Source of the DNA: a virus
Strand: one strand, 5' to 3'
Length of the DNA stretch: 27,204 nucleotides
UHGV virus genome: UHGV-0165622
Position numbers and translations under genes: made by a program. Below are positions 1-8,987 of this stretch, piece by piece; within the stretch, counting starts at the first letter, position 1; every line of letters begins with the position of its first letter. Under the pieces are notes generated by a model. It was not told the DNA's origin. It ran no database searches and saw nothing but the letters and a program-made list of their open reading frames with translations.

Positions 1-75
1 GCTGTCTCCGTATGATACCGAAGAGATGCTTGAGGCTATGCGTATTTTTCTGGAAGAACAGGAAGGTGAGCAAAA

Positions 76-390
76 ATGACGATCACAAAACAACGTGTAG
101 AAGAAATCATATCCCGTATTGAAATGTATGGGCATGGTGCCGGGTATACCGCTGATGAGGTTTATGACCTTGCTGTACTGGCGCTGAATTTATCAAATAT
201 CGCAAAACTCAAGCGATACGAGCTTGATATGGATGGTTGTGACTCGTTCGGTCAGGATTGTGGCGCTGACATGACTGAAGATTCTGATGGCGATTATGTC
301 CTGTTTGATGACGTAGTTAAGTTGTTTGAGTTTGATACATTCGAAAGCCCAGTAAAGGAGGCAGCCAGTGAGCGGAAAAAGAATGACTAA
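76..390 (+). CDS. Hypothetical phage early-region protein
   Basis: 104-aa ORF; N-terminus MTITKQRVEE resembles the N-terminus of the ORF at 1413; no recognisable domain. Confidence 0.5.
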   Translation: MTITKQRVEEIISRIEMYGHGAGYTADEVYDLAVLALNLSNIAKLKRYELDMDGCDSFGQDCGADMTEDSDGDYVLFDDVVKLFEFDTFESPVKEAASERKKND

Positions 391-592
391 CAGAGAGCTT
401 GTCGATGCCGCGATTAAGCTTGCTGGTGATTTTTATTCAATGATGGGGTACACGCATCGCCCAGGCTTCAAATATTGGGAGTCTCCTCACCCGCAAGAGC
501 AACTGGTATTTCAAATGGCCTGCCGTGCTTTTGAGGTTATTCGCGGTTCTGATGTGATGGACGCCGTTGCCGACTTGGAGGATGAAGAGTGA
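368..592 (+). CDS. Hypothetical small phage protein
   Basis: 74-aa ORF with GTG start 7 nt after an AAGGAGG Shine-Dalgarno at 354-360; stop overlaps start of next gene. Confidence 0.45.
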   Translation: MSGKRMTNRELVDAAIKLAGDFYSMMGYTHRPGFKYWESPHPQEQLVFQMACRAFEVIRGSDVMDAVADLEDEE

Positions 593-1137
593 GCGAAATT
601 AATTATCAGGCACTGCGTGATGCGGCAGAAAAGGCAACGAAAGGGAGCTACATCGTAGGGCATACATCTGTTAACCAGCACGGCAATTTAACAGGAGTTT
701 TTGTTTGCCAAAAATGGAAAGGAGAACCCGGTGGCGTGATTGCAGAATGTCATGTTAACTGCCTGGTTGAAACAGATGCTCAGGCTTACGCAAACGCTGA
801 ATTTATTGCTGCCTTTAATCCAAATGTTGCGCTGGCACTACTGGATGAACGGGAAAGAAACCAGCAATACATAAAATCCCGCGACAAGGAGAACGAGGAT
901 ATTGCGCTAACGGTAGGGAAGCTGCGCGTTGAGCTTGAAGCAGAAAAACAGCGGGCAAAAGTTCTATTTATGGAAAATGCTCGGCTTAAGTCAGGCATAG
1001 CCGGTCTGATACACCTCGGTATTCGATATGCAGATGTTGAGGTCATGAAAATTGCTGGAGATGCCCAGCTTTCTACCCCATGCACTGACAGCATCATAAA
1101 CAGCATTGCAACAGGCATTCGCATCAAAGGAGAGTGA
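589..1137 (+). CDS. Ea22-like family protein
   Basis: 182 aa; N-terminal SEINYQALRDAAEKA and central coiled-coil region typical of lambdoid Ea22-like proteins; GTG start overlapping upstream stop. Confidence 0.7.
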   Translation: MSEINYQALRDAAEKATKGSYIVGHTSVNQHGNLTGVFVCQKWKGEPGGVIAECHVNCLVETDAQAYANAEFIAAFNPNVALALLDERERNQQYIKSRDKENEDIALTVGKLRVELEAEKQRAKVLFMENARLKSGIAGLIHLGIRYADVEVMKIAGDAQLSTPCTDSIINSIATGIRIKGE

Positions 1138-1138
1138 T

Positions 1139-1402
1139 ATGGCAACTTTAACAAAAAAAGAACGGGCATGGTTGAACGAATTACAGGACGTTCTTGATCG
1201 CTGCCCATCACCGAAAAAAATTGGTTTTTACACCATTGGCGATAAAAGCATTTACCTGTATGACCTACGCCGCATGGATGAAATCATGGAGGCTCTTGAT
1301 AATCGTTCGTCGATGGATTGGTGTGTTGCTGTCCATGATATGAATGCCGGATTTGATGAAAGGATTTTGTTCCCCTCATCAGTTGAAAGCACTGCGGGTT
1401 AA
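1139..1402 (+). CDS. Hypothetical phage protein
   Basis: 87-aa ORF (MATLTKKERAWLNELQD...) with AAAGGAGAG Shine-Dalgarno just upstream. Confidence 0.5.
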   Translation: MATLTKKERAWLNELQDVLDRCPSPKKIGFYTIGDKSIYLYDLRRMDEIMEALDNRSSMDWCVAVHDMNAGFDERILFPSSVESTAG

Positions 1403-1412
1403 GGAGTAACAC

Positions 1413-1556
1413 ATGACCACTATTACCAAAGAACGTATTGAATTGTTCATTAAATTTTCAGGAGGCGGTACTGTGAGTGAAATTAGCTATCAGGCTTCAA
1501 TTACCGCTGGCATTCGCATCAAAGGAGAGGAGCATGGAAATAAAACCAGAGGATGA
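1413..1556 (+). pseudogene. Mosaic remnant ORF combining Ea22-like N- and C-terminal fragments
   Basis: 47-aa ORF: N-terminus like ORF 76, then SEISYQAS (Ea22-like N-terminus), then ITAGIRIKGE (Ea22-like C-terminus); the 21-nt string ggcattcgcatcaaaggagag is duplicated at 1114-1134 and 1509-1529. Confidence 0.35.
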
Positions 1557-1890
1557 GTTAAGCAATATCGTTTTATTTCCGGTAAAAGAGGATGACCCTC
1601 GTAATCAGGTTAATTTTCTTTATGAGCCATCGGAAAGACCATATTGTCATCACGCCTCTGTCCGGGTTGACGAAAAAGAGCGTCAGGTCCGCTGTAAAAT
1701 CTGCGGTGCAGTTGTGGAGCCATTTGACTGGATGCTCTCTGTGGCGAAAAGAGAAACCAGACTGGCAGATGATGTAAGGCACTTGCGCCAGGAGGAGCGG
1801 GAAAGGCGAAAAAATATAGAAAAGCTAATTCAGATTGAGCGTAACGCGAAAGCGCGGATACGCAGGGCGACAAAATCCAGAACTGAATAA
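1534..1890 (+). CDS. Hypothetical protein, basic C-terminus
   Basis: 118-aa ORF starting MEIKPEDEL with AAAGGAGAGGAG Shine-Dalgarno; contains C/H-rich segment CHHASVRV...RCKICGAV. Confidence 0.5.
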   Translation: MEIKPEDELSNIVLFPVKEDDPRNQVNFLYEPSERPYCHHASVRVDEKERQVRCKICGAVVEPFDWMLSVAKRETRLADDVRHLRQEERERRKNIEKLIQIERNAKARIRRATKSRTE

Positions 1891-1983
1891 TTAAATTTAG
1901 CTCTGTTAAAAATTTAATCCTTAACCGGAGGGATTTCTGCACCCTCAGAACATCAGGAGGCCGCCCGAAAGGGCGGTAGTTAA

Positions 1984-2166
1984 ATGCGAAAGTTTAAAAT
2001 AATTATTGAAACGGGAATAGCCGGTGGAGATTTCGAGGATGAATTCGAAGTGGATGATGATGCGACGCCTGATGAAATACATGACGAAGCAAAAGATATT
2101 TTCTTTAACTACTGCAATTACTCACATCACGAAATAAAAGACGAAGAGGAAGAGCAAAATGGCTGA
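1984..2166 (+). CDS. Small acidic hypothetical protein
   Basis: 60-aa ORF, strongly acidic; preceded by a hairpin (gccgcccgaaagggcggt). Confidence 0.4.
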   Translation: MRKFKIIIETGIAGGDFEDEFEVDDDATPDEIHDEAKDIFFNYCNYSHHEIKDEEEEQNG

Positions 2167-2335
2167 TTTTGGTTCAACTAAATACAACGTCAGTTTTGAA
2201 GCATGGCATGAACTGTTAATGGACTATGCAGAGTTACGTGGTGGCAGTGCTGCTGATGCTGAAGCATGGCGTGATGATTATGAAGCAGGAAAAACTCCGG
2301 TCGAAGCATATTGTGATGAGTGGGGCGATGAATGA
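2159..2335 (+). CDS. Small hypothetical protein (not in ORF track)
   Basis: 58-aa ORF MADFGSTKYNVSFEAWHELL...; start overlaps previous stop and stop overlaps next start, consistent with a coupled early operon. Confidence 0.35.
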   Translation: MADFGSTKYNVSFEAWHELLMDYAELRGGSAADAEAWRDDYEAGKTPVEAYCDEWGDE

Positions 2336-2721
2336 GCGAGATTAATTATCAGGAAGGGCATGAAACGGCAGGGCAGGCAAAACCAGTTGCATGGCGATAT
2401 CGCTACGTGAAAAAAGACGTTACAGACTTTCAGGGGAAGCCGTGGGCTGGTGACTGGAAATATGTACCGACAAAAGAGGATTGTAACGACAGGCCGAACT
2501 ATGAAATTCAGGCCTTATTCATCGGCCCGCCAGTCCCGGTGACATCAGAAGGACTGGTTAAAGCCGTGCGCTTTTATGAACAGGTAAAGCGTGAGAATCC
2601 GCCAGTCGAAACAGGAGCATGGAAGGATGCTGTTGACTGGGTGCTCAGAGAGGCCTGCTGCGCTGCCATTCTGGGTAAGCCGACAATCCACCAGCATCCG
2701 GCAATCAGGTTAGCGAATTAA
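2332..2721 (+). CDS. Ea22-like family protein (short paralogue)
   Basis: 129 aa; N-terminus MSEINYQEGHETAG parallels the Ea22-like gene at 589. Confidence 0.6.
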   Translation: MSEINYQEGHETAGQAKPVAWRYRYVKKDVTDFQGKPWAGDWKYVPTKEDCNDRPNYEIQALFIGPPVPVTSEGLVKAVRFYEQVKRENPPVETGAWKDAVDWVLREACCAAILGKPTIHQHPAIRLAN

Positions 2722-2723
2722 CA

Positions 2724-2846
2724 ATGTGGGTTAAACGACTGGTCAGTCAACTGAAAAAAGCTCAGCCGGACTGCAAATTACCGGAGAAGGCGATGGATTA
2801 CCTGAAACGAAATGGACTGATAAGCGTGGAGGATGTTTTACGATGA
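2724..2846 (+). CDS. Small hypothetical protein (40 aa, not in ORF track)
   Basis: Short ORF MWVKRLVSQLKKAQPDCKLPEKAMDYLKRNGLISVEDVLR directly after the Ea22-like stop. Confidence 0.25.
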   Translation: MWVKRLVSQLKKAQPDCKLPEKAMDYLKRNGLISVEDVLR

Positions 2847-2927
2847 ATATTTAGACTAAAGAGTTTGTAACGCTATGTAAGTGATTTTTTCTGGTTTAGA
2901 TATTTATATGTCCGGCCAAATTGAGGT

Positions 2928-3146
2928 GTGTTTAAATGTTATTGCACATTGATTGTAGGGGGAATAATGAAAAACGCATTGCAGTTTTTGTTTGTTGCGT
3001 TCTGGTTGTTCGCATCATGTATGCCCATCATCTTCACAGCAAGGTATATGGAAAAAATTGATGTTTTGATATTAATGTTTGGACATATAAATGCCCTTTT
3101 TTTAGGGGTGTTCATGGCGGTCATGTGCATTGAATACTGGCGGTAA
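2928..3146 (+). CDS. Small hydrophobic (membrane) protein, AT-rich
   Basis: 72-aa ORF with two predicted hydrophobic helices in an AT-rich stretch; true start may be the internal Met (MKNALQF). Confidence 0.3.
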   Translation: MFKCYCTLIVGGIMKNALQFLFVAFWLFASCMPIIFTARYMEKIDVLILMFGHINALFLGVFMAVMCIEYWR

Positions 3147-3229
3147 ATACAGCGAACGCCATTGGTTTAGTTGGATATTTACTGTGCCGGACAAAAACGG
3201 TTTGCGGGGAAATCTTAGTTAAGTAGAAT

Positions 3230-3408
3230 GACTGCGGGTGCTTGAGGCTATCTGTCTCAGGCATGAACACCAAAAGGCAGATAGAGAAAAGCCCCAGTTA
3301 ACATTACGCGTCCTGCAAGACGCTTAACATTAATCTGAGGCCATATCTATGCGACACATAGAGATTAGCCTCTTACGGACCGAAAGGTCAAGGAGAAGCA
3401 GGCTATGA
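3230..3408 (+). promoter_or_regulatory. hok mRNA leader with mok-like upstream ORF (3349-3408) and probable antisense Sok target region
   Basis: 20-codon upstream ORF whose TGA overlaps the hok ATG (ctATGAag); inverted repeats in the leader (tatctgtctc / gcagatagag) fit hok/sok fold-back regulation. Confidence 0.4.
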
Positions 3409-3560
3409 AGCAGCAAAAGGCGATGTTAATCGCCCTGATCGTCATCTGTTTAACCGTCATAGTGACGGCACTGGTAACGAGGAAAGACCTCTGCGAGGTA
3501 CGAATCCGAACCGGCCAGACGGAGGTCGCTGTCTTCACAGCTTACGAACCTGAGGAGTAA
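3405..3560 (+). CDS. hokD: Hok/Gef family type I toxin (small membrane-depolarising peptide)
   Basis: 51 aa, MKQQKAMLIALIVICLTVIVTALVTRKDLCEVRIRTGQTEVAVFTAYEPEE; matches the Hok/Gef signature and is closest to HokD/RelF and HokC from memory; below the 60-aa cutoff of the ORF track. Confidence 0.85.
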   Translation: MKQQKAMLIALIVICLTVIVTALVTRKDLCEVRIRTGQTEVAVFTAYEPEE

Positions 3561-3628
3561 GAGACCCGGCGGGGGAGTAATCTCCCGCCACCTCTGATGT
3601 GCCAGGCATCCTCAACGCACCCGCACTT

Positions 3629-3650
3629 AACCCGCTTCGGCGGGTTTTTG
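3629..3650 (+). terminator. Rho-independent terminator after hok
   Basis: Hairpin cccgc-ttcg-gcggg followed by a T5 run. Confidence 0.7.
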
Positions 3651-3661
3651 CATTAGTCTGG

Positions 3662-3690
3662 TTGACAAAAATAGAAAAATGCGAAAATAT
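3662..3690 (+). promoter_or_regulatory. Putative sigma70 promoter for the 3726-5460 cassette
   Basis: Perfect -35 TTGACA at 3662-3667, 17-nt spacer, weak -10-like AAATAT; AT-rich context. Confidence 0.3.
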
Positions 3691-3725
3691 GTGGTTTACG
3701 AATTCTAAAAAAAGCGAAACTTGAA

Positions 3726-4376
3726 ATGAATGAAAATCAGTTAGCTCCTTGTTGGGAATTTCAACCTTATCTTGCTGAAAACTATGTTCGCCACTTGTTG
3801 GCGGAGATCGCTAACGTACTTGAGCAGCTGTACTATCATAAGCACGCATTAGACAGCAACTGGTCTGAAGGTGTAAGGGCTTATGATTGGGTCAGAAATC
3901 ATCTTATTCAAAATGAAGATGCAATTCCTGGCCTTGAGATGATTTCCAAGGGGTTGGACTATGTAGTTGCTTTAAATAAAGTTCCGCTACAATTTACCAA
4001 AGATTGCATTAATAACCCCAAAAAGAAACATCGTCTGCGTCGAAATAAAGTAGAGTATGAGCAGCTCTCATTGTTTGGTGATGTTGAGGCTGAGCAAGAT
4101 ATTACATGGCGAGTCATAGCTGAGCCTTTTTTATCCGAAGAGGGCGATGGTGAATTAGAGTCCACACTGCCTCGTTGGGAGGTAGCTCTTGTTGGATTTA
4201 ATACTTATGGTGCTCAGATTAGTATAGTTTCTCATCAATCTACAGCATCGATGCCGCTTATGCCTCTTGATTATAACACACTCCCTGACGAAGCGGAGAT
4301 TAATAAGGTGCCTCTTCGTCGGCGTACGAAGGATAAAGATTTGGATGTGAGCAGTGATGGAACATCAGGTGAATAA
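3726..4376 (+). CDS. Unknown 216-aa protein, upstream partner of the HTH/Zn-peptidase gene (candidate toxin or effector)
   Basis: ORF with no motif I recognise; low-GC codon usage; 3' end overlaps the downstream gene by about 20 nt. Confidence 0.7.
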   Translation: MNENQLAPCWEFQPYLAENYVRHLLAEIANVLEQLYYHKHALDSNWSEGVRAYDWVRNHLIQNEDAIPGLEMISKGLDYVVALNKVPLQFTKDCINNPKKKHRLRRNKVEYEQLSLFGDVEAEQDITWRVIAEPFLSEEGDGELESTLPRWEVALVGFNTYGAQISIVSHQSTASMPLMPLDYNTLPDEAEINKVPLRRRTKDKDLDVSSDGTSGE

Positions 4377-5460
4377 CTTCACTGAGTATCGGGGTGATAA
4401 GCTCAAACTAGCGAGAATGGCTGTTGGGCTTTCTTGTGAAGAGTTAGCCGAAAAAATTGGCAAGACAAAGCAATTCGTTAGCAAACTGGAGAAGGGGTGC
4501 AGGCCATCGGAGCAATGTCTTGAGTTAATATCTTCAGCGCTTATGATTAAGTCCAGTTTTCTTTTTACTGAACGAAAATACGCTCTGGAAAGTGATGTCT
4601 GCCATTTTCGGAGTAAGAAGTCCAGGACTCAAACGCTGACTAATAGTGTATTGGCCAGGGCTGAGATTCTTAATATTATAATTTCTGCTGTTGAAGGTGA
4701 AATCGAATTTCCTGACGTTAACATACCGGAGCACCCAGGGGCTGAATTACTTACTCCGAATGATATTGAGCGAGTGGCAGAAGATTGTCGCCGTGCCTGG
4801 AATTTAGGTCTTGGCCCTATATCATCAATGGTTAAATTGGCGGAGAGTTTAGGGGTAATCGTTGCGCATGTTACGGGAGTCGATGATCGTGTTGATGCTT
4901 TTACTGTTCACAATAACAGGCCTGTTATCATCAGGAACAATGTTAAAAAAAGCATATGTAGATTTCGCTCTGATTTAGGTCATGAATTAGGGCATTTAGT
5001 AATGCATGAGGGCATAACGACAGGTGATAAACTTACGGAATCACAAGCCGATCACTTTTCGAGCGCCTTATTAGTTCCCAGGTTATCTTTCATTAAAGAA
5101 TTTCCACGAATACGAGGTAAGCAATTCGACTGGAATGCTCTGGTTGAATTTAAACTTAGATGGAAAATCAGCCTTAAAATGTGTATTTATCGAGCCAGCG
5201 CATTAGGCTTATTGACCCAGGAACAGGCAAGAACTGGCTATATGCATCTTAATTCCAGAGGGTATACGAGAGTTGAACCTGGTGATGAACTTTTGCGCCC
5301 TGAAGAACCCGGCATGCTGGCCGAGGCGATTGAAATGCTGGATGATGCAACCTGGCTAAGAATTCTTATGAAAACTGGCTTGAGCCAAGATTTAATTCGT
5401 GAGTTGTTCTCCATCAACAGACCTATTACAAATCCAAGAAATATTTTCCAGATTGTTTGA
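4354..5460 (+). CDS. HTH_XRE plus ImmA/IrrE-family (COG2856, M78-like) zinc metallopeptidase fusion protein
   Basis: N-terminal XRE helix-turn-helix (LSCEELAEKIGKTKQFVSKLEKGCRPS); HEXXH zinc motif HELGH at about 4979-4993 with downstream Glu; 368 aa; GTG/ATG start overlapping the upstream gene. Confidence 0.85.
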   Translation: MMEHQVNNFTEYRGDKLKLARMAVGLSCEELAEKIGKTKQFVSKLEKGCRPSEQCLELISSALMIKSSFLFTERKYALESDVCHFRSKKSRTQTLTNSVLARAEILNIIISAVEGEIEFPDVNIPEHPGAELLTPNDIERVAEDCRRAWNLGLGPISSMVKLAESLGVIVAHVTGVDDRVDAFTVHNNRPVIIRNNVKKSICRFRSDLGHELGHLVMHEGITTGDKLTESQADHFSSALLVPRLSFIKEFPRIRGKQFDWNALVEFKLRWKISLKMCIYRASALGLLTQEQARTGYMHLNSRGYTRVEPGDELLRPEEPGMLAEAIEMLDDATWLRILMKTGLSQDLIRELFSINRPITNPRNIFQIV

Positions 5461-5464
5461 GTAT

Positions 5465-5486
5465 ACCCGCTTCGGCGGGTTTTTTG
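5465..5486 (+). terminator. Rho-independent terminator after the cassette
   Basis: Same hairpin as at 3629-3650 (acccgcttcggcggg) followed by a T6 run. Confidence 0.7.
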
Positions 5487-5646
5487 TTTTTATTTTCAAC
5501 GTGTTTGAAGTTTTGGACGGTGCCAGAATAGAATCAAAAATACTTAAGTAGCGCGCAGGGATAAGAGGGATGGTCCCTTAAAGGGGAGAGCTAATTATCC
5601 GGAAGGATTCTGATGATGAACATCGAAGAACTGCGTAAAATTTTTT

Positions 5647-5865
5647 GTGAAGATGGCCTTCTATGCTGTGTGCGTTGAAAATGGAAATCTTGTTAGTCAT
5701 TACCGCATTATGTGTTTGCGAAAGAATGGGGCTGCGTTAATTAATTTTGTGGATGCTCGGGTCACGGACGGATTTATCTTGCGCGACGGTGAGTTTGTCA
5801 CTTCATTACAGGTATTGAAAGAGATCGGAATAAAAGCAGGCTTTTCAGCTTTTGCAGAAGAATAA
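5647..5865 (+). CDS. Rem-like small prophage protein (possibly frameshifted at its N-terminus)
   Basis: 72-aa ORF; an upstream ATG at 5613 in another frame (MMNIEELRKIF...) would join in-frame if the T6 run at 5640-5646 were T5, giving an 83-aa product. Confidence 0.5.
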   Translation: MKMAFYAVCVENGNLVSHYRIMCLRKNGAALINFVDARVTDGFILRDGEFVTSLQVLKEIGIKAGFSAFAEE

Positions 5866-5931
5866 ACTCATCTACAATCTTGCGCGGGGCTGAACTCCCG
5901 CTGAGTAACACCGTGCCACCGGAGAAAACCG

Positions 5932-6210
5932 ATGGCACGCAACGCAAAATATTACAAACATGATAATTCGACCGTTCTTGCCCACACGCACGAGCGGTAT
6001 TCTCACGCATTTAAGTCAGACTGGTACCAGCATCCCCCATGCACTGAAGAACAGGCCGAATGGCTGATTCATAACTACCGCAGACGTGGATATGAGTTTA
6101 GGAAAGCCCTCACCCTCGATTATCGTCACTGGATAATCTACGTCAGACTCCCTTATTCCGAACGCCCACCGCGTCCGTCCCGCACATTCCAGCAACGCAT
6201 CTGGAGGTAA
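5932..6210 (+). CDS. Hypothetical basic protein
   Basis: 92-aa ORF ending 1 nt before the GTG start of the DUF968 gene. Confidence 0.45.
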   Translation: MARNAKYYKHDNSTVLAHTHERYSHAFKSDWYQHPPCTEEQAEWLIHNYRRRGYEFRKALTLDYRHWIIYVRLPYSERPPRPSRTFQQRIWR

Positions 6211-6211
6211 C

Positions 6212-7261
6212 GTGCGGGTATTACTTCGACCTGTTCTGGTACCGGAACTCGGGCTGGTGATCGTTAAGCCGGGCCGTGAATCCATGCCGGTATTCCACAA
6301 TACCCGGGTACTGGTGGAGCCGGAACCGAAAAGCATGCGTAATCTGCCGTCCGGGGTCGTTCCTGCCGTTCGCCAGCCGCTGGCGGAGGATAAATCATTA
6401 CTGCCATTTTTCAGCGACGAACGAGTGATTCGTGCTGCTGGTGGCGCTGGCGCATTGTCTGACTGGTTACTGCGCCATGTTAAATCCTGCCAGTGGCCAC
6501 ACGGCGATTATCACCACAGTGAAACCGTCATTCACCGTTATGGTACCGGCGCAATGGTGTTGTGCTGGCACTGCGACAACCAGCTGCGTGACCAGACATC
6601 CGAATCACTCGAGCAACTTGCTCATCAAAACCTGTCAGCATGGATGATTGACGTCATCGGTCACGCAATAAGCGGTACGCAGGAGCGTGAATTATCTCTG
6701 GCTGAATTATCCTGGTGGGCGGTCCGCAATCAGGTGGCGGACGCGCTACCGGAAGTGGTATTACGTCGTTCGCTGGGGTTGCGTGCGGAAAAAATCCGCT
6801 CAATGTACCGTGAAAGCGACATCGTACCGGGAGAGCAGACCGCCACCAGCATACTGAAACAGCGCACAAAAAATATTGCGCCGCTGCCTCACGCCCACCA
6901 GCAACAGAACCCACCACAGGAAAAGACGGTGGTCAGCATTGCCGTTGATCCTGAGTCTCCGGAATCTTTCATGAAACGACCTAAACGTCGCCGCTGGGTT
7001 AACGAGAAATACAAACGCTGGGTGAAGACACAGCCGTGTGCGTGTTGTGGTAAGCCAGCCGACGATCCCCATCACCTGATTGGTCATGGTCAGGGCGGAA
7101 TGGGGACAAAATCTCACGATATTTTCACGCTACCGCTGTGTCGGGAGCATCACAACGAGCTTCATGCGGATCCTCTGGCGTTCGAACAAAAGCATGGTTC
7201 TCAGGTTGATTTAATTTTTCGTTTTCTTGATCACGCCTTTGCAACTGGCGTGCTTGGGTAA
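6212..7261 (+). CDS. DUF968-family prophage protein (YdfU-like) with C-terminal HNH-like Cys/His motif
   Basis: 349 aa; C-terminus CACCGKPADDPHHLIGHGQGG...LCREHHNELH resembles an HNH motif; position upstream of rusA as in Qin-type prophages. Confidence 0.7.
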   Translation: MRVLLRPVLVPELGLVIVKPGRESMPVFHNTRVLVEPEPKSMRNLPSGVVPAVRQPLAEDKSLLPFFSDERVIRAAGGAGALSDWLLRHVKSCQWPHGDYHHSETVIHRYGTGAMVLCWHCDNQLRDQTSESLEQLAHQNLSAWMIDVIGHAISGTQERELSLAELSWWAVRNQVADALPEVVLRRSLGLRAEKIRSMYRESDIVPGEQTATSILKQRTKNIAPLPHAHQQQNPPQEKTVVSIAVDPESPESFMKRPKRRRWVNEKYKRWVKTQPCACCGKPADDPHHLIGHGQGGMGTKSHDIFTLPLCREHHNELHADPLAFEQKHGSQVDLIFRFLDHAFATGVLG

Positions 7262-7273
7262 AAGAGGTGACTG

Positions 7274-7633
7274 ATGCTCATAGATTTGGTTTTACCTTAC
7301 CCGCCGACGGTGAACACTTACTGGCGACGCCGTGGCAGCACATATTTTATCTCGGAGGAGGGAAAGCGTTATCGCCGGGCTGTGGCGCTTATTGTTCGCC
7401 AGCAGCGGCTGAAATTAAGCCTGTCCGGAAGGCTGGCGATAAAGGTGATTGCAGAGCCACCGGATAAGCGTCGTCGCGACCTGGACAATATCCTGAAAGC
7501 ACCGCTGGATGCGCTGACGCATGCGGGAGTGTTAATGGACGATGAGCAGTTTGATGAAATCAATATTGTAGGTGGTCAGCCAGTATCTGGTGGACGGCTG
7601 GGTGTGAAGATTTACAAAATTGAGAGTGAGTGA
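7274..7633 (+). CDS. rusA: RusA-family Holliday junction resolvase
   Basis: 119 aa; conserved RusA residues (PPTVNTYW, RRRDLDN, DALT..GV..DD) and AAAGAGG Shine-Dalgarno. Confidence 0.85.
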   Translation: MLIDLVLPYPPTVNTYWRRRGSTYFISEEGKRYRRAVALIVRQQRLKLSLSGRLAIKVIAEPPDKRRRDLDNILKAPLDALTHAGVLMDDEQFDEINIVGGQPVSGGRLGVKIYKIESE

Positions 7634-8196
7634 GCGTAAATATGATATATCCGGAAATTACAGGCAAAAGCGGCGAGCATTTACGTCTAAAAACGCTGGA
7701 AGCAGTCTGGATCCAGGGGAAATTACGGATGTGGGGGCGGTGGTCGTATATTGGCGGCGGTAAGACGGGAAATATGTTCAACCAATTACTGACCTCTAAA
7801 AAGCTGACAAAAACGGCAATTAACGAGGCGCTCCGGAGGATGAAAAAAGCTGGTCTGGACAAACCTGAACTTGAGGCTTTTTTGCGGGATATGATCAACG
7901 GCAATCAAAAAAGCTGGCTGGCACATTGTACCGATTCAGAGGCGTTAATAATCGACAGGGTTATTGGTGAAGTCCTGGCAGGCTATCCCGGGCTGCTCAA
8001 TGTCCTGAGTCAGCGTTATGTGGGGCGGGGGATGACTAAGCGCAAAATGGCTGAACTGCTGAATGATGCACACCCGGAATGGAGTTTAAGAACCTGTGAA
8101 AGACGCATTGAGCATTGGCTAAAGGTGGCAGAATTTATTTTGTACAAACCAATGGTTATGGCTTTTGGTATAGAGAAAAAAGTTATTGCTTTTTGA
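7630..8196 (+). CDS. Putative late-gene antiterminator Q-like protein
   Basis: 188-aa ORF in the canonical Q position (after rusA, before the tR'-like terminator and lysis region); loose similarity to phage-21/DLP12-type Q from memory. Confidence 0.55.
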   Translation: MSVNMIYPEITGKSGEHLRLKTLEAVWIQGKLRMWGRWSYIGGGKTGNMFNQLLTSKKLTKTAINEALRRMKKAGLDKPELEAFLRDMINGNQKSWLAHCTDSEALIIDRVIGEVLAGYPGLLNVLSQRYVGRGMTKRKMAELLNDAHPEWSLRTCERRIEHWLKVAEFILYKPMVMAFGIEKKVIAF

Positions 8197-8272
8197 CGTA
8201 AAAACTGCTTCAATTCCGGTACGCTTCGCAAAGCTGTACCACGAGGCGAATAGCAGACATGGACATTTGAAA

Positions 8273-8618: not shown

Positions 8619-8987
8619 AGGCTTTTTTATTTGTGGTAAATGGGCGGCTGGTGGGTGTGGTGGTTGTTGCTTTCCCGTTGCTGAAAAAGAAAACGCCAGA
8701 CTGTTAGCCGGGTATCAGTTATCTGGAGAAATTTTTAAATACCTCACAATTCAGGCGGTTGACTGTTGTCTGGTTTGCGGGGAGTTTGTTAAAAGAAACT
8801 GGCATGGTGAATCCCCCTGTGCGGAGGGGCAATCAGCGAGTAGGTATATGGGATAATCGCGGATTCAGGTGCTGGTACTGAATTCACCGGGAGGCACCCG
8901 GCACCATGCAATGGCACATAGCGCCACTCTCCAGCCCCTCTCCGGAGGGGCTGTTTATATTGATTTTGTCAGATGTGAGTAAACTCC

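What the first reader, a model, noticed from the sequence alone, without database searches (positions are those of the whole stretch)
3230..3560. hok/Gef type I toxin locus hidden below the ORF-track size cutoff, directly upstream of the cassette
A 51-aa Hok-family peptide is encoded at 3405-3560 with a short mok-like upstream ORF (3349-3408) whose stop overlaps the hok ATG. Unlike K-12 hokD, which I recall lying downstream of relBE, there is no relBE here; the gene follows Ea22-like cargo. A type I toxin sitting beside a putative TA-like defence cassette makes this a small addiction/defence islet inside the prophage.
Basis: partly seen in the sequence, partly recalled or inferred. Interest (0 to 1): 0.5.

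Follow-up and report, generated by a model that had tools for sequence, protein, structure and literature searches.

The report
Complete hokD/sok toxin-antitoxin module in prophage
This is an ordinary, already annotated hok/mok/sok type I toxin-antitoxin module of a lambdoid E. coli prophage, complete with its regulatory RNA leader (which the K-12 hokD copy lacks) and sitting next to a RosmerTA defence cassette.

Summary
The ORF at 3405-3560 encodes a 51-aa peptide identical in protein and DNA to E. coli K-12 HokD (Pfam HOK_GEF, 82.9 bits). The 19-codon upstream ORF at 3349-3408 ends in a TGA that overlaps the hok ATG.

Unlike K-12 hokD, whose leader is replaced by relE, this copy keeps the whole hok/sok regulatory region:
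- Rfam RF01794 matches 3236-3407 at 106.7 bits.
- A 5' tac / 3' fbi closing helix is predicted.
- The mok Shine-Dalgarno is sequestered by GCCCC.
- A terminator lies at 3629-3646.
- On the minus strand there is a homologue of the validated sokW RNA of phage 933W/Sp5 (about 3355 to 3287, promoter 3362-3391).

Homologous DNA occurs in 4938 of 5426 complete E. coli genomes, where RefSeq calls the gene hokD. The exact leader variant occurs in 798.

The neighbouring cassette (3726-5460) matches PADLOC RmrT/RmrA (RosmerTA). The hok module is a separate mosaic unit found beside many other cargos, so functional coupling is not shown.

Minor points: the mok frame differs from both 933W and R1, and a roughly 25-nt hypervariable block at the Sok recognition site keeps its hairpin.

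Verdict: a known kind, low interest.

The parts
3201..3229 (+). Putative hok promoter: weak -35 (TTTGCG/TTGCGG, about 3201-3207) and -10 TAGAAT (3224-3229), 6 nt upstream of the mRNA start
   Evidence: Read from the sequence. The -10 and its spacing to the Rfam model start at 3236 are shared with 933W hokW. The consensus scan did not call it because the -35 matches only 3 of 6. This is an inference.
3236..3651 (+). Full-length hok (mok-hok) mRNA, about 416 nt
   Evidence: The Rfam RF01794 model starts at 3236 and a terminator lies at 3629-3646 followed by a T run. The MFE is -170.5 kcal/mol, z=-8.1 against shuffles. Homology to other loci ends at 3648-3650.
3236..3247 (+). tac element (GGGUGCUUGAGG) at the 5' end
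   Evidence: It pairs with 3610-3622 in the MFE. All 12 pairs are kept in 66 of 66 related loci. R1-type hok mRNA shows the same closure.
3291..3295 (+). ucb / anti-SD box (GCCCC) that sequesters the mok Shine-Dalgarno
   Evidence: 3291-3295 pairs with 3337-3341 in the MFE. The same GCCCC/GAGG pairing is predicted in the R1 control.
3337..3340 (+). mok Shine-Dalgarno (GAGG), 8 nt upstream of the mok ATG
   Evidence: Read from the sequence. It is invariant in 67 related loci.
3349..3408 (+). mok-like leader ORF of 19 codons, with its TGA overlapping the hok ATG (ATGA)
   Evidence: The same ATG is the annotated mokW start in 933W.
3343..3368 (+). Hypervariable mok-start hairpin, which is the target of the Sok 5' tail
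   Evidence: Mean column entropy is 0.60 here against 0.09-0.13 in the flanking leader. There are 17 haplotypes among 67 loci with the same toxin, and almost all fold into the same hairpin with different stem sequences.
3287..3355 (-). Sok antisense RNA, about 69 nt: a 5' single-stranded tail, then a long hairpin and UUUU
   Evidence: It is positionally homologous to the annotated 71-nt sokW of 933W. Its fold is -29.3 kcal/mol, z=-5.0. It covers the mok SD and the mok AUG.
3362..3391 (-). Sok promoter: -35 TTGACC (3391-3386), 18-nt spacer, -10 TAATCT (3367-3362)
   Evidence: It aligns with the 933W sokW promoter (TTGCCT, 17 nt, TAACCT). Mutation of that promoter's -10 abolished antitoxin activity (PMC8621323). 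The consensus scan did not call it.
3391..3395 (+). hok Shine-Dalgarno (AGGAG), 9 nt upstream of the hok ATG
   Evidence: Read from the sequence. This is the point from which K-12 hokD becomes identical to the window.
3405..3560 (+). hok toxin gene, 51 aa, identical to HokD
   Evidence: Pfam HOK_GEF at 82.9 bits. It is 51/51 identical to K-12 HokD, 47/51 to HokW and 22/52 to R1-type Hok. PGAP annotates the gene as hokD in matching genomes.
3610..3622 (+). fbi (fold-back inhibition) element, CCUCAA(C)GCACCC
   Evidence: It pairs with tac at 3236-3247 and is conserved.
3629..3651 (+). Intrinsic terminator of the hok mRNA (AACCCGC-TTCG-GCGGGTT, then a T run)
   Evidence: Terminator scan. Compensatory changes occur at 3 of its 7 pairs.

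Best explanation
The region 3190-3651 is a complete, self-contained hok/mok/sok type I toxin-antitoxin module of the prophage hokD/hokW subtype. The proposed mechanism, step by step, follows.
1. A weak promoter makes a stable hok mRNA of about 416 nt.
2. The 5' end of that mRNA (tac) is clamped to its 3' end (fbi), and the mok ribosome-binding site is hidden by an upstream GCCCC box, so the RNA is translationally silent.
3. Slow 3' trimming is expected to free the leader.
4. Ribosomes then translate the 19-codon mok ORF, terminate on the hok start codon (AUGA) and reinitiate, producing the 51-aa membrane toxin Hok.
5. A short-lived antisense RNA, Sok, is made from the opposite strand across the mok start. 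It pairs with the mok SD and AUG and blocks this step, probably with RNase III cleavage of the duplex.
6. When Sok synthesis stops, Hok is made and the cell membrane is damaged. Sok synthesis could stop through loss of the prophage, shut-off of host transcription, or prophage induction with sense read-through from the early operon.

What is shown here: the sequence elements, their homology and the predicted pairings. What is inferred from R1 hok/sok and from Sp5 hokW/sokW: expression, 3' processing, translational coupling, toxicity and the biological trigger.
For: - Toxin: Pfam HOK_GEF at 82.9 bits. The peptide is 100% identical to K-12 HokD and 92% identical to HokW, which is toxic on induction and inserts into the inner membrane.
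- Leader: Rfam RF01794 gives a full-length hit at 106.7 bits against a gathering score of 59.
- Long-range tac-fbi helix and ucb-mok SD pairing: both are predicted in the MFE (z=-8.1). R1-type hok mRNA reproduces them as a positive control. tac-fbi is 100% paired in 66 related loci.
- Sok: it is positionally homologous to the annotated sokW and has the expected tail, hairpin and U-tract fold. Its promoter aligns with the sokW promoter, whose mutation unmasks toxicity.
- mok: the ATG and SD are invariant across loci. For R1 it has been shown that only mok translation up to the hok start is required, and that stops beyond the hok start are harmless (PMC9841398). That matches this 19-codon ORF exactly.
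- Persistence: this exact leader variant is present in 798 of 5426 complete E. coli genomes and in 12 of 80 IMG/VR loci.
- Module boundaries at about 3189-3224 and 3648-3650 recur against different flanks.
Against: - No expression data exist for this copy.
- The generic sigma-70 scan found no promoter on either strand in 3000-3800. Both promoters are identified by homology only.
- Thermodynamic folding of a 3'-truncated mRNA does not open the mok SD. The same failure occurs for the R1 control, so this test is uninformative.
- This variant carries a 2-nt deletion just after the mok ATG relative to most relatives. The deletion removes the CU that forms a YUNR motif at the equivalent loop position in R1 (CUAG) and 933W (CUGA). 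That could slow Sok binding.
- Earlier work, cited, reported that some chromosomal hok loci do not mediate post-segregational killing.
Confidence: 0.88

Rival explanations
1. The locus is a structurally intact but functionally silent relic. It is carried along with the prophage, Hok is never produced from the native transcript, and the locus gives no maintenance, defence or lysis phenotype.
For: - Chromosomal hokA, hokB and hokC loci were reported unable to mediate post-segregational killing (summarised in bioRxiv 10.1101/2025.08.07.668861).
- mok is cut to 19 codons by a net -1 frame change relative to the majority form.
- The loop lacks the YUNR found at the R1 and 933W position.
- No consensus promoters were found.
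Against: - Every regulatory element is present and conserved.
- The toxin CDS is intact and identical across hundreds of prophages.
- The variant is frequent, not sporadic.
- The 92%-identical hokW/sokW is active from its native prophage.
- A chromosomal single copy of R1 hok is lethal without Sok.
- mok truncation at the hok start is functionally tolerated in R1.
Confidence: 0.15
2. The module's main role is not addiction or defence. It acts as a phage-encoded lysis helper: on induction Sok disappears, Hok permeabilises the membrane before holin and endolysin act, and more progeny are released.
For: - This was shown for hokW-sokW in Sp5. Sok was lost after mitomycin C in a RecA-dependent way, HokW appeared about 1 h before endolysin, and the deletion mutant released half as many phage (PMC8621323).
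- In the window hok is co-oriented with the early and nin-region genes and Sok is antisense to them. Induced read-through could therefore interfere with the Sok promoter. This last point is an inference.
Against: - The effect in Sp5 was only two-fold.
- The module is also frequent in defective prophages such as Qin and on plasmids, where lysis help is irrelevant.
- Whether this prophage is inducible is unknown.
Confidence: 0.35
3. hok/sok and the adjacent RmrT/RmrA pair form one functional addiction/defence islet, either co-regulated or co-selected as a unit.
For: - The two are directly adjacent, 75 nt apart.
- The same hokD-Rosmer junction appears in at least 237 E. coli genomes, for example strain 042.
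- At least 7 of 72 related loci carry a PADLOC-recognised cassette at this same junction: two Rosmer types and PDC-S42.
Against: - An intrinsic terminator separates the two units.
- Homology of the hok module stops at 3648-3650 in 76 of 80 loci.
- Most loci have Rem, or nothing, in the slot.
- A survey of thousands of hok loci found no enrichment next to defence systems.
Confidence: 0.1

Closest known systems
hokW/mokW/sokW of Stx2 phages 933W and Sp5 (Sakai prophage 5)
   Same: - About 92% nucleotide identity over the module, and the toxin is 47/51 identical.
- Same promoter, tac, ucb, mok ATG, Sok, fbi and terminator layout.
- Same place in a lambdoid genome.
- Experimentally a type I TA system.
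   Different: - mokW is in frame with hokW: the starts are 57 nt apart, giving a 70-aa N-extended Hok. Here the spacing is 56 nt and mok stops on the hok start.
- The sequence of the mok-start hairpin, which is the Sok 5' tail target, differs.
- The Sok promoter has TTGACC with an 18-nt spacer instead of TTGCCT with 17 nt.
- The downstream neighbours differ.
E. coli K-12 hokD (relF) in the Qin prophage
   Same: The CDS and 3' UTR are identical: 156/156 nt and 51/51 aa. The fbi and terminator are the same, and the position relative to rem/DUF968/Q in related prophages is the same.
   Different: In K-12 the similarity starts only about 15 nt upstream of the ATG. The promoter, tac, ucb, mok and sok are replaced by the 3' end of relE. 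K-12 hokD is therefore a truncated copy, and the window holds the complete one.
hok/mok/sok (parB) of plasmid R1 and IncF plasmids
   Same: The architecture is the same, as are the predicted tac-fbi and ucb-SD(mok) pairings. There are 19 mok codons upstream of the hok start, and Sok overlaps the mok translation initiation region.
   Different: - The toxin is only 22/52 identical.
- R1 mok continues for 70 codons in the +1 frame, with the starts 58 nt apart.
- R1 is on a plasmid and has proven post-segregational killing.

Membership tests
[quoted passage not shown] | Small hydrophobic Hok/Gef toxin (Pfam PF01848) | tested here: met
   82.9 bits against a cutoff of 22, covering model positions 1-42 of 42. 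The peptide is identical to HokD.
[quoted passage not shown] | Conserved structured 5' leader of the hok mRNA (Rfam RF01794) | tested here: met
   106.7 bits against a gathering score of 59, covering model positions 1-157 of 157, at 3236-3407.
[quoted passage not shown] | A mok reading frame with its own SD, translated across the hok translation initiation region | tested here: met
   GAGG at 3337-3340 and ATG at 3349, with 19 codons ending at ATGA on the hok start. The frame and length differ from R1 and 933W. Translation only up to the hok start is sufficient in R1.
[quoted passage not shown] | A cis-encoded antisense Sok RNA overlapping the mok SD and AUG, with its own promoter and a terminator hairpin | tested here: met
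   The sequence is homologous to the annotated sokW. The fold shows a 5' tail plus hairpin plus U tract, z=-5.0. Promoter activity itself is not testable here, and the consensus scan was negative.
[quoted passage not shown] | Long-range 5'-3' (tac-fbi) pairing that closes the full-length mRNA, and ucb sequestration of the mok SD | tested here: met
   3236-3247 pairs with 3610-3622, and 3291-3295 pairs with 3337-3341, in the MFE. The R1 control gives the same result. The pairing is 100% kept in related loci but invariant, so there is no covariation within this set.
[quoted passage not shown] | Refolding triggered by 3' processing that exposes the mok SD and the Sok target | tested here: inconclusive
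   MFE folds of 3'-truncated RNA keep the SD paired, but so does the R1 reference, which is known experimentally to open. A local fold does show the expected mok SD/dcb stem and target hairpin in all haplotypes.
[quoted passage not shown] | YUNR U-turn motif in the target loop for fast Sok binding | tested here: inconclusive
   R1 has CUAG and 933W has CUGA just after the mok AUG. The window has AUGCGACAC, with no YUNR there, and so does the commonest haplotype. The motif is short and frequent elsewhere. Its role is known from Franch et al. 1999, as cited in PMC6562991.
[quoted passage not shown] | Toxicity of Hok, and its neutralisation by Sok | not testable with these tools
   Only by analogy: HokW, which is 47/51 identical, is toxic and is neutralised by sokW.
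RosmerTA (RmrT/RmrA) defence system (the neighbouring cassette) | An RmrT toxin followed by an RmrA antitoxin carrying HTH and M78/IrrE peptidase domains | tested here: met
   PADLOC gives RmrT 86.4 bits for 3726-4376 and RmrA 349.3 bits for 4354-5460. Pfam finds HTH_3 and Peptidase_M78 in the second ORF. Anti-phage activity was not tested.

The most novel reading that the evidence does not exclude
The roughly 25-nt island of extreme sequence diversity at the mok start, which is the Sok 5'-tail target (3343-3368), sits inside an otherwise 93-99% identical module that encodes an identical toxin. Its hairpin is preserved by compensatory changes. This pattern could reflect diversifying selection that keeps the hok/sok modules of co-resident lambdoid prophages orthogonal, so that one prophage's Sok cannot rescue loss of another. 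On this reading the 19-codon 'mini-mok' form would be one such specificity allele rather than decay.
Probability: 0.25. Interest if true: 0.4.

Novelty: already known. Interest (0 to 1): 0.15.

Why it matters
It matters little as a discovery. hokD/hokW-type loci are annotated in most E. coli genomes, and a 92%-identical copy has been studied experimentally.

It is still useful in three ways.
- Annotation: Sok, mok and the regulatory RNA elements are not annotated in RefSeq records, and they can be placed here to the base.
- Correction: K-12 hokD is the truncated exception, not the rule.
- Mapping: the junction right after the hok terminator is a recurrent insertion slot for defence cassettes in lambdoid prophages.

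Tried and rejected
- The generic promoter scan of 3000-3800 found none. Both promoters fall below its 4-of-6 rule, so homology to 933W and R1 was used instead.
- Folding 3'-truncated hok mRNA to see the 'open' active form did not open the mok SD. The R1 positive control fails the same way, so the test was dropped as uninformative.
- Covariation counting on 67 close relatives showed that most helices are invariant. Eight pairs have double changes, against 2.8 in shuffles, so support is only modest. tac-fbi covariation is visible only against R1: GGGUGC/GCACCC versus GGCGC/GCGCC.
- A test for avoidance of identical Sok haplotypes within one genome was inconclusive without a proper null. Eighty of 798 genomes carry the window haplotype twice. 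Of two IMG/VR genome pairs, one shares a haplotype and one does not.
- A literature search for the 'hok mRNA family' paper returned nothing useful.
- The NCBIfam Hok models score below their cutoffs for this peptide. This reflects model specificity rather than evidence against membership, given the Pfam hit and the identity to HokD.
- The Rfam sub-threshold hits ceN48, rsmX and isrK were dismissed as chance or as terminator-driven.

Full report
**Observation.** The ORF at 3405-3560 (+) encodes MKQQKAMLIALIVICLTVIVTALVTRKDLCEVRIRTGQTEVAVFTAYEPEE. An ATG at 3349 opens a 19-codon ORF, MRHIEISLLRTERSRRSRL, whose TGA (3406-3408) overlaps the hok ATG (3405-3407).

The peptide matches Pfam HOK_GEF over the whole model at 82.9 bits, E=1.2e-23. 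It is identical in protein (51/51) and DNA (156/156) to E. coli K-12 hokD. It is 47/51 identical to HokW of phage 933W and 22/52 identical to the R1-type plasmid Hok.

The region upstream of the toxin gene, 3236-3407, matches the Rfam hok/sok leader model RF01794 end to end. The score is 106.7 bits against a gathering score of 59, E=5.9e-25, and the match is found again in a whole-window scan. The hit is on the plus strand because the model describes the hok mRNA leader, to which Sok is antisense.

**How common it is.** A 531-nt query around the locus matches 4938 of 5426 complete E. coli genomes, with a median of 2 and up to 9 places per genome. The gene under the match is annotated by RefSeq as 'type I toxin-antitoxin system toxin HokD'. 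The query also matches 79 phage records, among them 933W, where mokW, hokW and the antisense sokW are annotated, and several hundred plasmids. IMG/VR holds at least 576 prophage or phage loci encoding a relative; the 80 that were fetched all encode the identical peptide.

**Anatomy (window coordinates).**
- *hok promoter.* The -10 TAGAAT is at 3224-3229, with a weak -35 about 17 nt upstream. The mRNA start is placed at about 3236, where the Rfam model begins.
- *Full-length mRNA fold.* The 416-nt transcript 3236-3651 folds to -170.5 kcal/mol, z=-8.1. Its first 12 nt (GGGUGCUUGAGG, tac) pair with 3610-3622 (CCUCAA(C)GCACCC, fbi).
- *mok SD sequestration.* The mok Shine-Dalgarno GAGG (3337-3340) is paired with GCCCC (3291-3295, the ucb or anti-SD box).
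- *Control.* The R1-type hok mRNA, folded the same way, shows the same two interactions. The difference in tac (GGGUGC here, GGCGC in R1) is matched by the difference in fbi (GCACCC here, GCGCC in R1).
- *hok SD and terminator.* The hok SD AGGAG is at 3391-3395. A terminator hairpin at 3629-3646 is followed by a T run.

**Sok.** On the minus strand the sequence aligns with the annotated 71-nt sokW of 933W. This gives a -35 TTGACC (3391-3386), an 18-nt spacer, a -10 TAATCT (3367-3362), a start at G 3355 and an end near 3287. This 69-nt RNA folds into a 13-nt 5' tail, a long hairpin and UUUU, at -29.3 kcal/mol, z=-5.0. It covers the mok SD and the mok AUG.

The generic promoter scan called neither promoter, so both rest on homology. 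For sokW, mutation of the -10 unmasked HokW toxicity and sokW in trans restored growth (PMC8621323).

**Relation to K-12 hokD.** Alignment shows that K-12 hokD shares sequence with the window only from about 15 nt upstream of the ATG. Everything 5' of that (promoter, tac, ucb, mok, sok) is replaced in K-12 by the end of relE.

**The mok frame.** Among 80 IMG/VR loci with the identical toxin, 67 have the mok ATG 57 nt before the hok ATG. In those, mok is in frame and gives a 70-aa N-extended Hok, as annotated for mokW. Twelve have the window's 56-nt spacing (19 codons, with the stop on the hok start). Three lack a recognisable mok start, including K-12-like copies without the leader.

The R1-type locus has 58 nt and a 70-codon mok in the +1 frame. 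The Mok peptide is therefore not conserved; only its start and its passage to the hok start are. This agrees with experiments on R1, where stop codons in mok upstream of the hok start abolish toxicity and those beyond it do not (PMC9841398).

The window's arrangement is the minimal form that those data predict to be sufficient. It is well suited to termination-reinitiation, which is an inference. The exact 35-nt variant (3338-3372) is present in 798 of 5426 complete genomes, so it is an established allele and not a private frameshift.

**Variation.** In an alignment of 67 distinct loci the module is 93-99% conserved except for one block, 3343-3368. Mean column entropy there is 0.60, against 0.09-0.13 for the flanking leader, and there are 17 haplotypes.

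Folded locally, nearly all haplotypes form the same structure. An outer AGGC/GCCU stem pairs the mok SD with a downstream box. An inner hairpin carries the mok AUG in its 5' arm, with different stem sequences and loops.

This block is the part of the mRNA bound by the Sok 5' tail, together with the Sok start and -10 region. It invites the idea of specificity alleles. My two crude checks do not show avoidance of identical alleles within one genome, so I keep the idea as a low-probability reading.

Relative to R1 (CUAG) and 933W (CUGA), the window lacks a YUNR motif just after the mok AUG. The commonest haplotype also lacks one. The significance is unclear.

**Context.** All genes in this part of the window are on the plus strand. 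In order they are: an Ead/Ea22-like ORF (589-1137), small cargo ORFs, hok/sok, a two-gene cassette, then DUF968 (6212-7261) and RusA (7274-7633). This is the region of a lambdoid prophage between the replication genes and the nin/Q region, the same layout as in strains EBJ003 and 042.

The cassette at 3726-4376 and 4354-5460 matches PADLOC RmrT (86 bits) and RmrA (349 bits; HTH plus M78 peptidase), that is, RosmerTA. The same hokD-Rosmer junction occurs in at least 237 complete genomes.

The hok module behaves as an independent mosaic unit. In 80 loci its homology to the window begins at about 3189-3224 and ends at 3648-3650, whatever the flanks. The slot to its right holds one of the following:
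- Rem.
- Nothing.
- DUF1367.
- A lipoprotein-like ORF.
- An HTH/M78 pair.
- A second, different RmrT/RmrA pair.
- PDC-S42.

At least 7 of 72 loci carry a PADLOC-recognised cassette there, so the junction is a recurrent cargo and defence slot. There is no sign of functional coupling: a terminator separates the units, and a large survey found no enrichment of hok near defence systems.

**Mechanism and role.** The best-supported explanation is the classical hok/mok/sok mechanism set out in the Best explanation section. Its sequence elements and pairings are shown here. Expression, processing, coupling and toxicity are inferred from R1 and from Sp5 hokW/sokW.

The biological role in a prophage is open. 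The candidates are:
- Prophage maintenance.
- Abortive response to transcription shut-off by a lytic phage. R1 hok/sok partially excludes T4, as cited.
- Help with lysis on induction, as shown for Sp5. There sokW vanished after mitomycin C in a RecA-dependent way and the deletion halved phage release.

Sok is antisense to the early rightward operon here. I therefore suggest, as an inference only, that induced read-through could shut the Sok promoter off. The Sp5 authors left that step unexplained.

**Verdict.** The finding is real and correctly interpreted, but it is an already known and widely annotated system. Interest is low.

Noticed in passing
window 3726-5460 (+): The two overlapping ORFs (216 aa and 368 aa) match PADLOC RmrT (86 bits) and RmrA (349 bits; HTH_3 plus Peptidase_M78), that is, a RosmerTA defence cassette. 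The same hokD-Rosmer junction is found in at least 237 complete E. coli genomes, including strain 042.
   Followed up: partly
window ~3651 junction; loci L006-L085: The slot just right of the hok terminator is variable cargo in related prophages. It holds Rem, nothing, DUF1367, a lipoprotein-like ORF, an HTH/M78 pair (L019), a second and different RmrT/RmrA pair (L053, L073), or PADLOC PDC-S42 (L044). At least 7 of 72 loci carry a recognised defence cassette there.
   Followed up: partly
window 3343-3368: This is a hypervariable island (17 haplotypes, entropy 0.60 against about 0.1 in the flanks) at the mok start and Sok 5'-tail target, among loci that encode an identical toxin. The hairpin architecture is kept by different stem sequences. 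Identical haplotypes do co-occur in some genomes.
   Followed up: partly
window 3349-3408 vs L001 2656-2868 and L005: There are three different mok configurations in one family. The window has 56 nt between the starts and a 19-codon ORF that stops on the hok ATG. 933W and most prophage loci have 57 nt, with mok in frame as a 70-aa extended Hok. R1-type plasmids have 58 nt and a 70-codon mok in the +1 frame.
   Followed up: yes
window 3543-3545: Hok codon 47 is TAC in a TACG context (GCTTACGAACC). A recent preprint reports TadA A-to-I editing (Tyr to Cys) at this kind of site in hokB and similarly in hokC, hokD and hokE.
   Followed up: no
window 8773-8962 (+): There is a full-length match to Rfam RF02076 STnc100 sRNA (132.4 bits against a gathering score of 47), downstream of the RusA/Q region.
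   Followed up: no
window 2928-3146 (+): A small, very hydrophobic ORF (72 aa from a GTG, or about 59 aa from an internal ATG) lies just upstream of the hok module. It has no Pfam, NCBIfam or PADLOC match.
   Followed up: no
window 1-8200: No complete E. coli genome covers 80% or more of this 8.2-kb stretch in one place; the best is 69% at 97% identity. The window's combination of upstream cargo, this hok leader allele and Rosmer looks like a particular mosaic. None of the 80 IMG/VR loci combines the window-type leader with Rosmer.
   Followed up: partly
phage record PP818812.1 (hit H28): A phage deposited as an Actinobacillus pleuropneumoniae phage carries a hok module 94.6% identical to this E. 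coli one. This is an odd host assignment for an enterobacterial lambdoid module.
   Followed up: no
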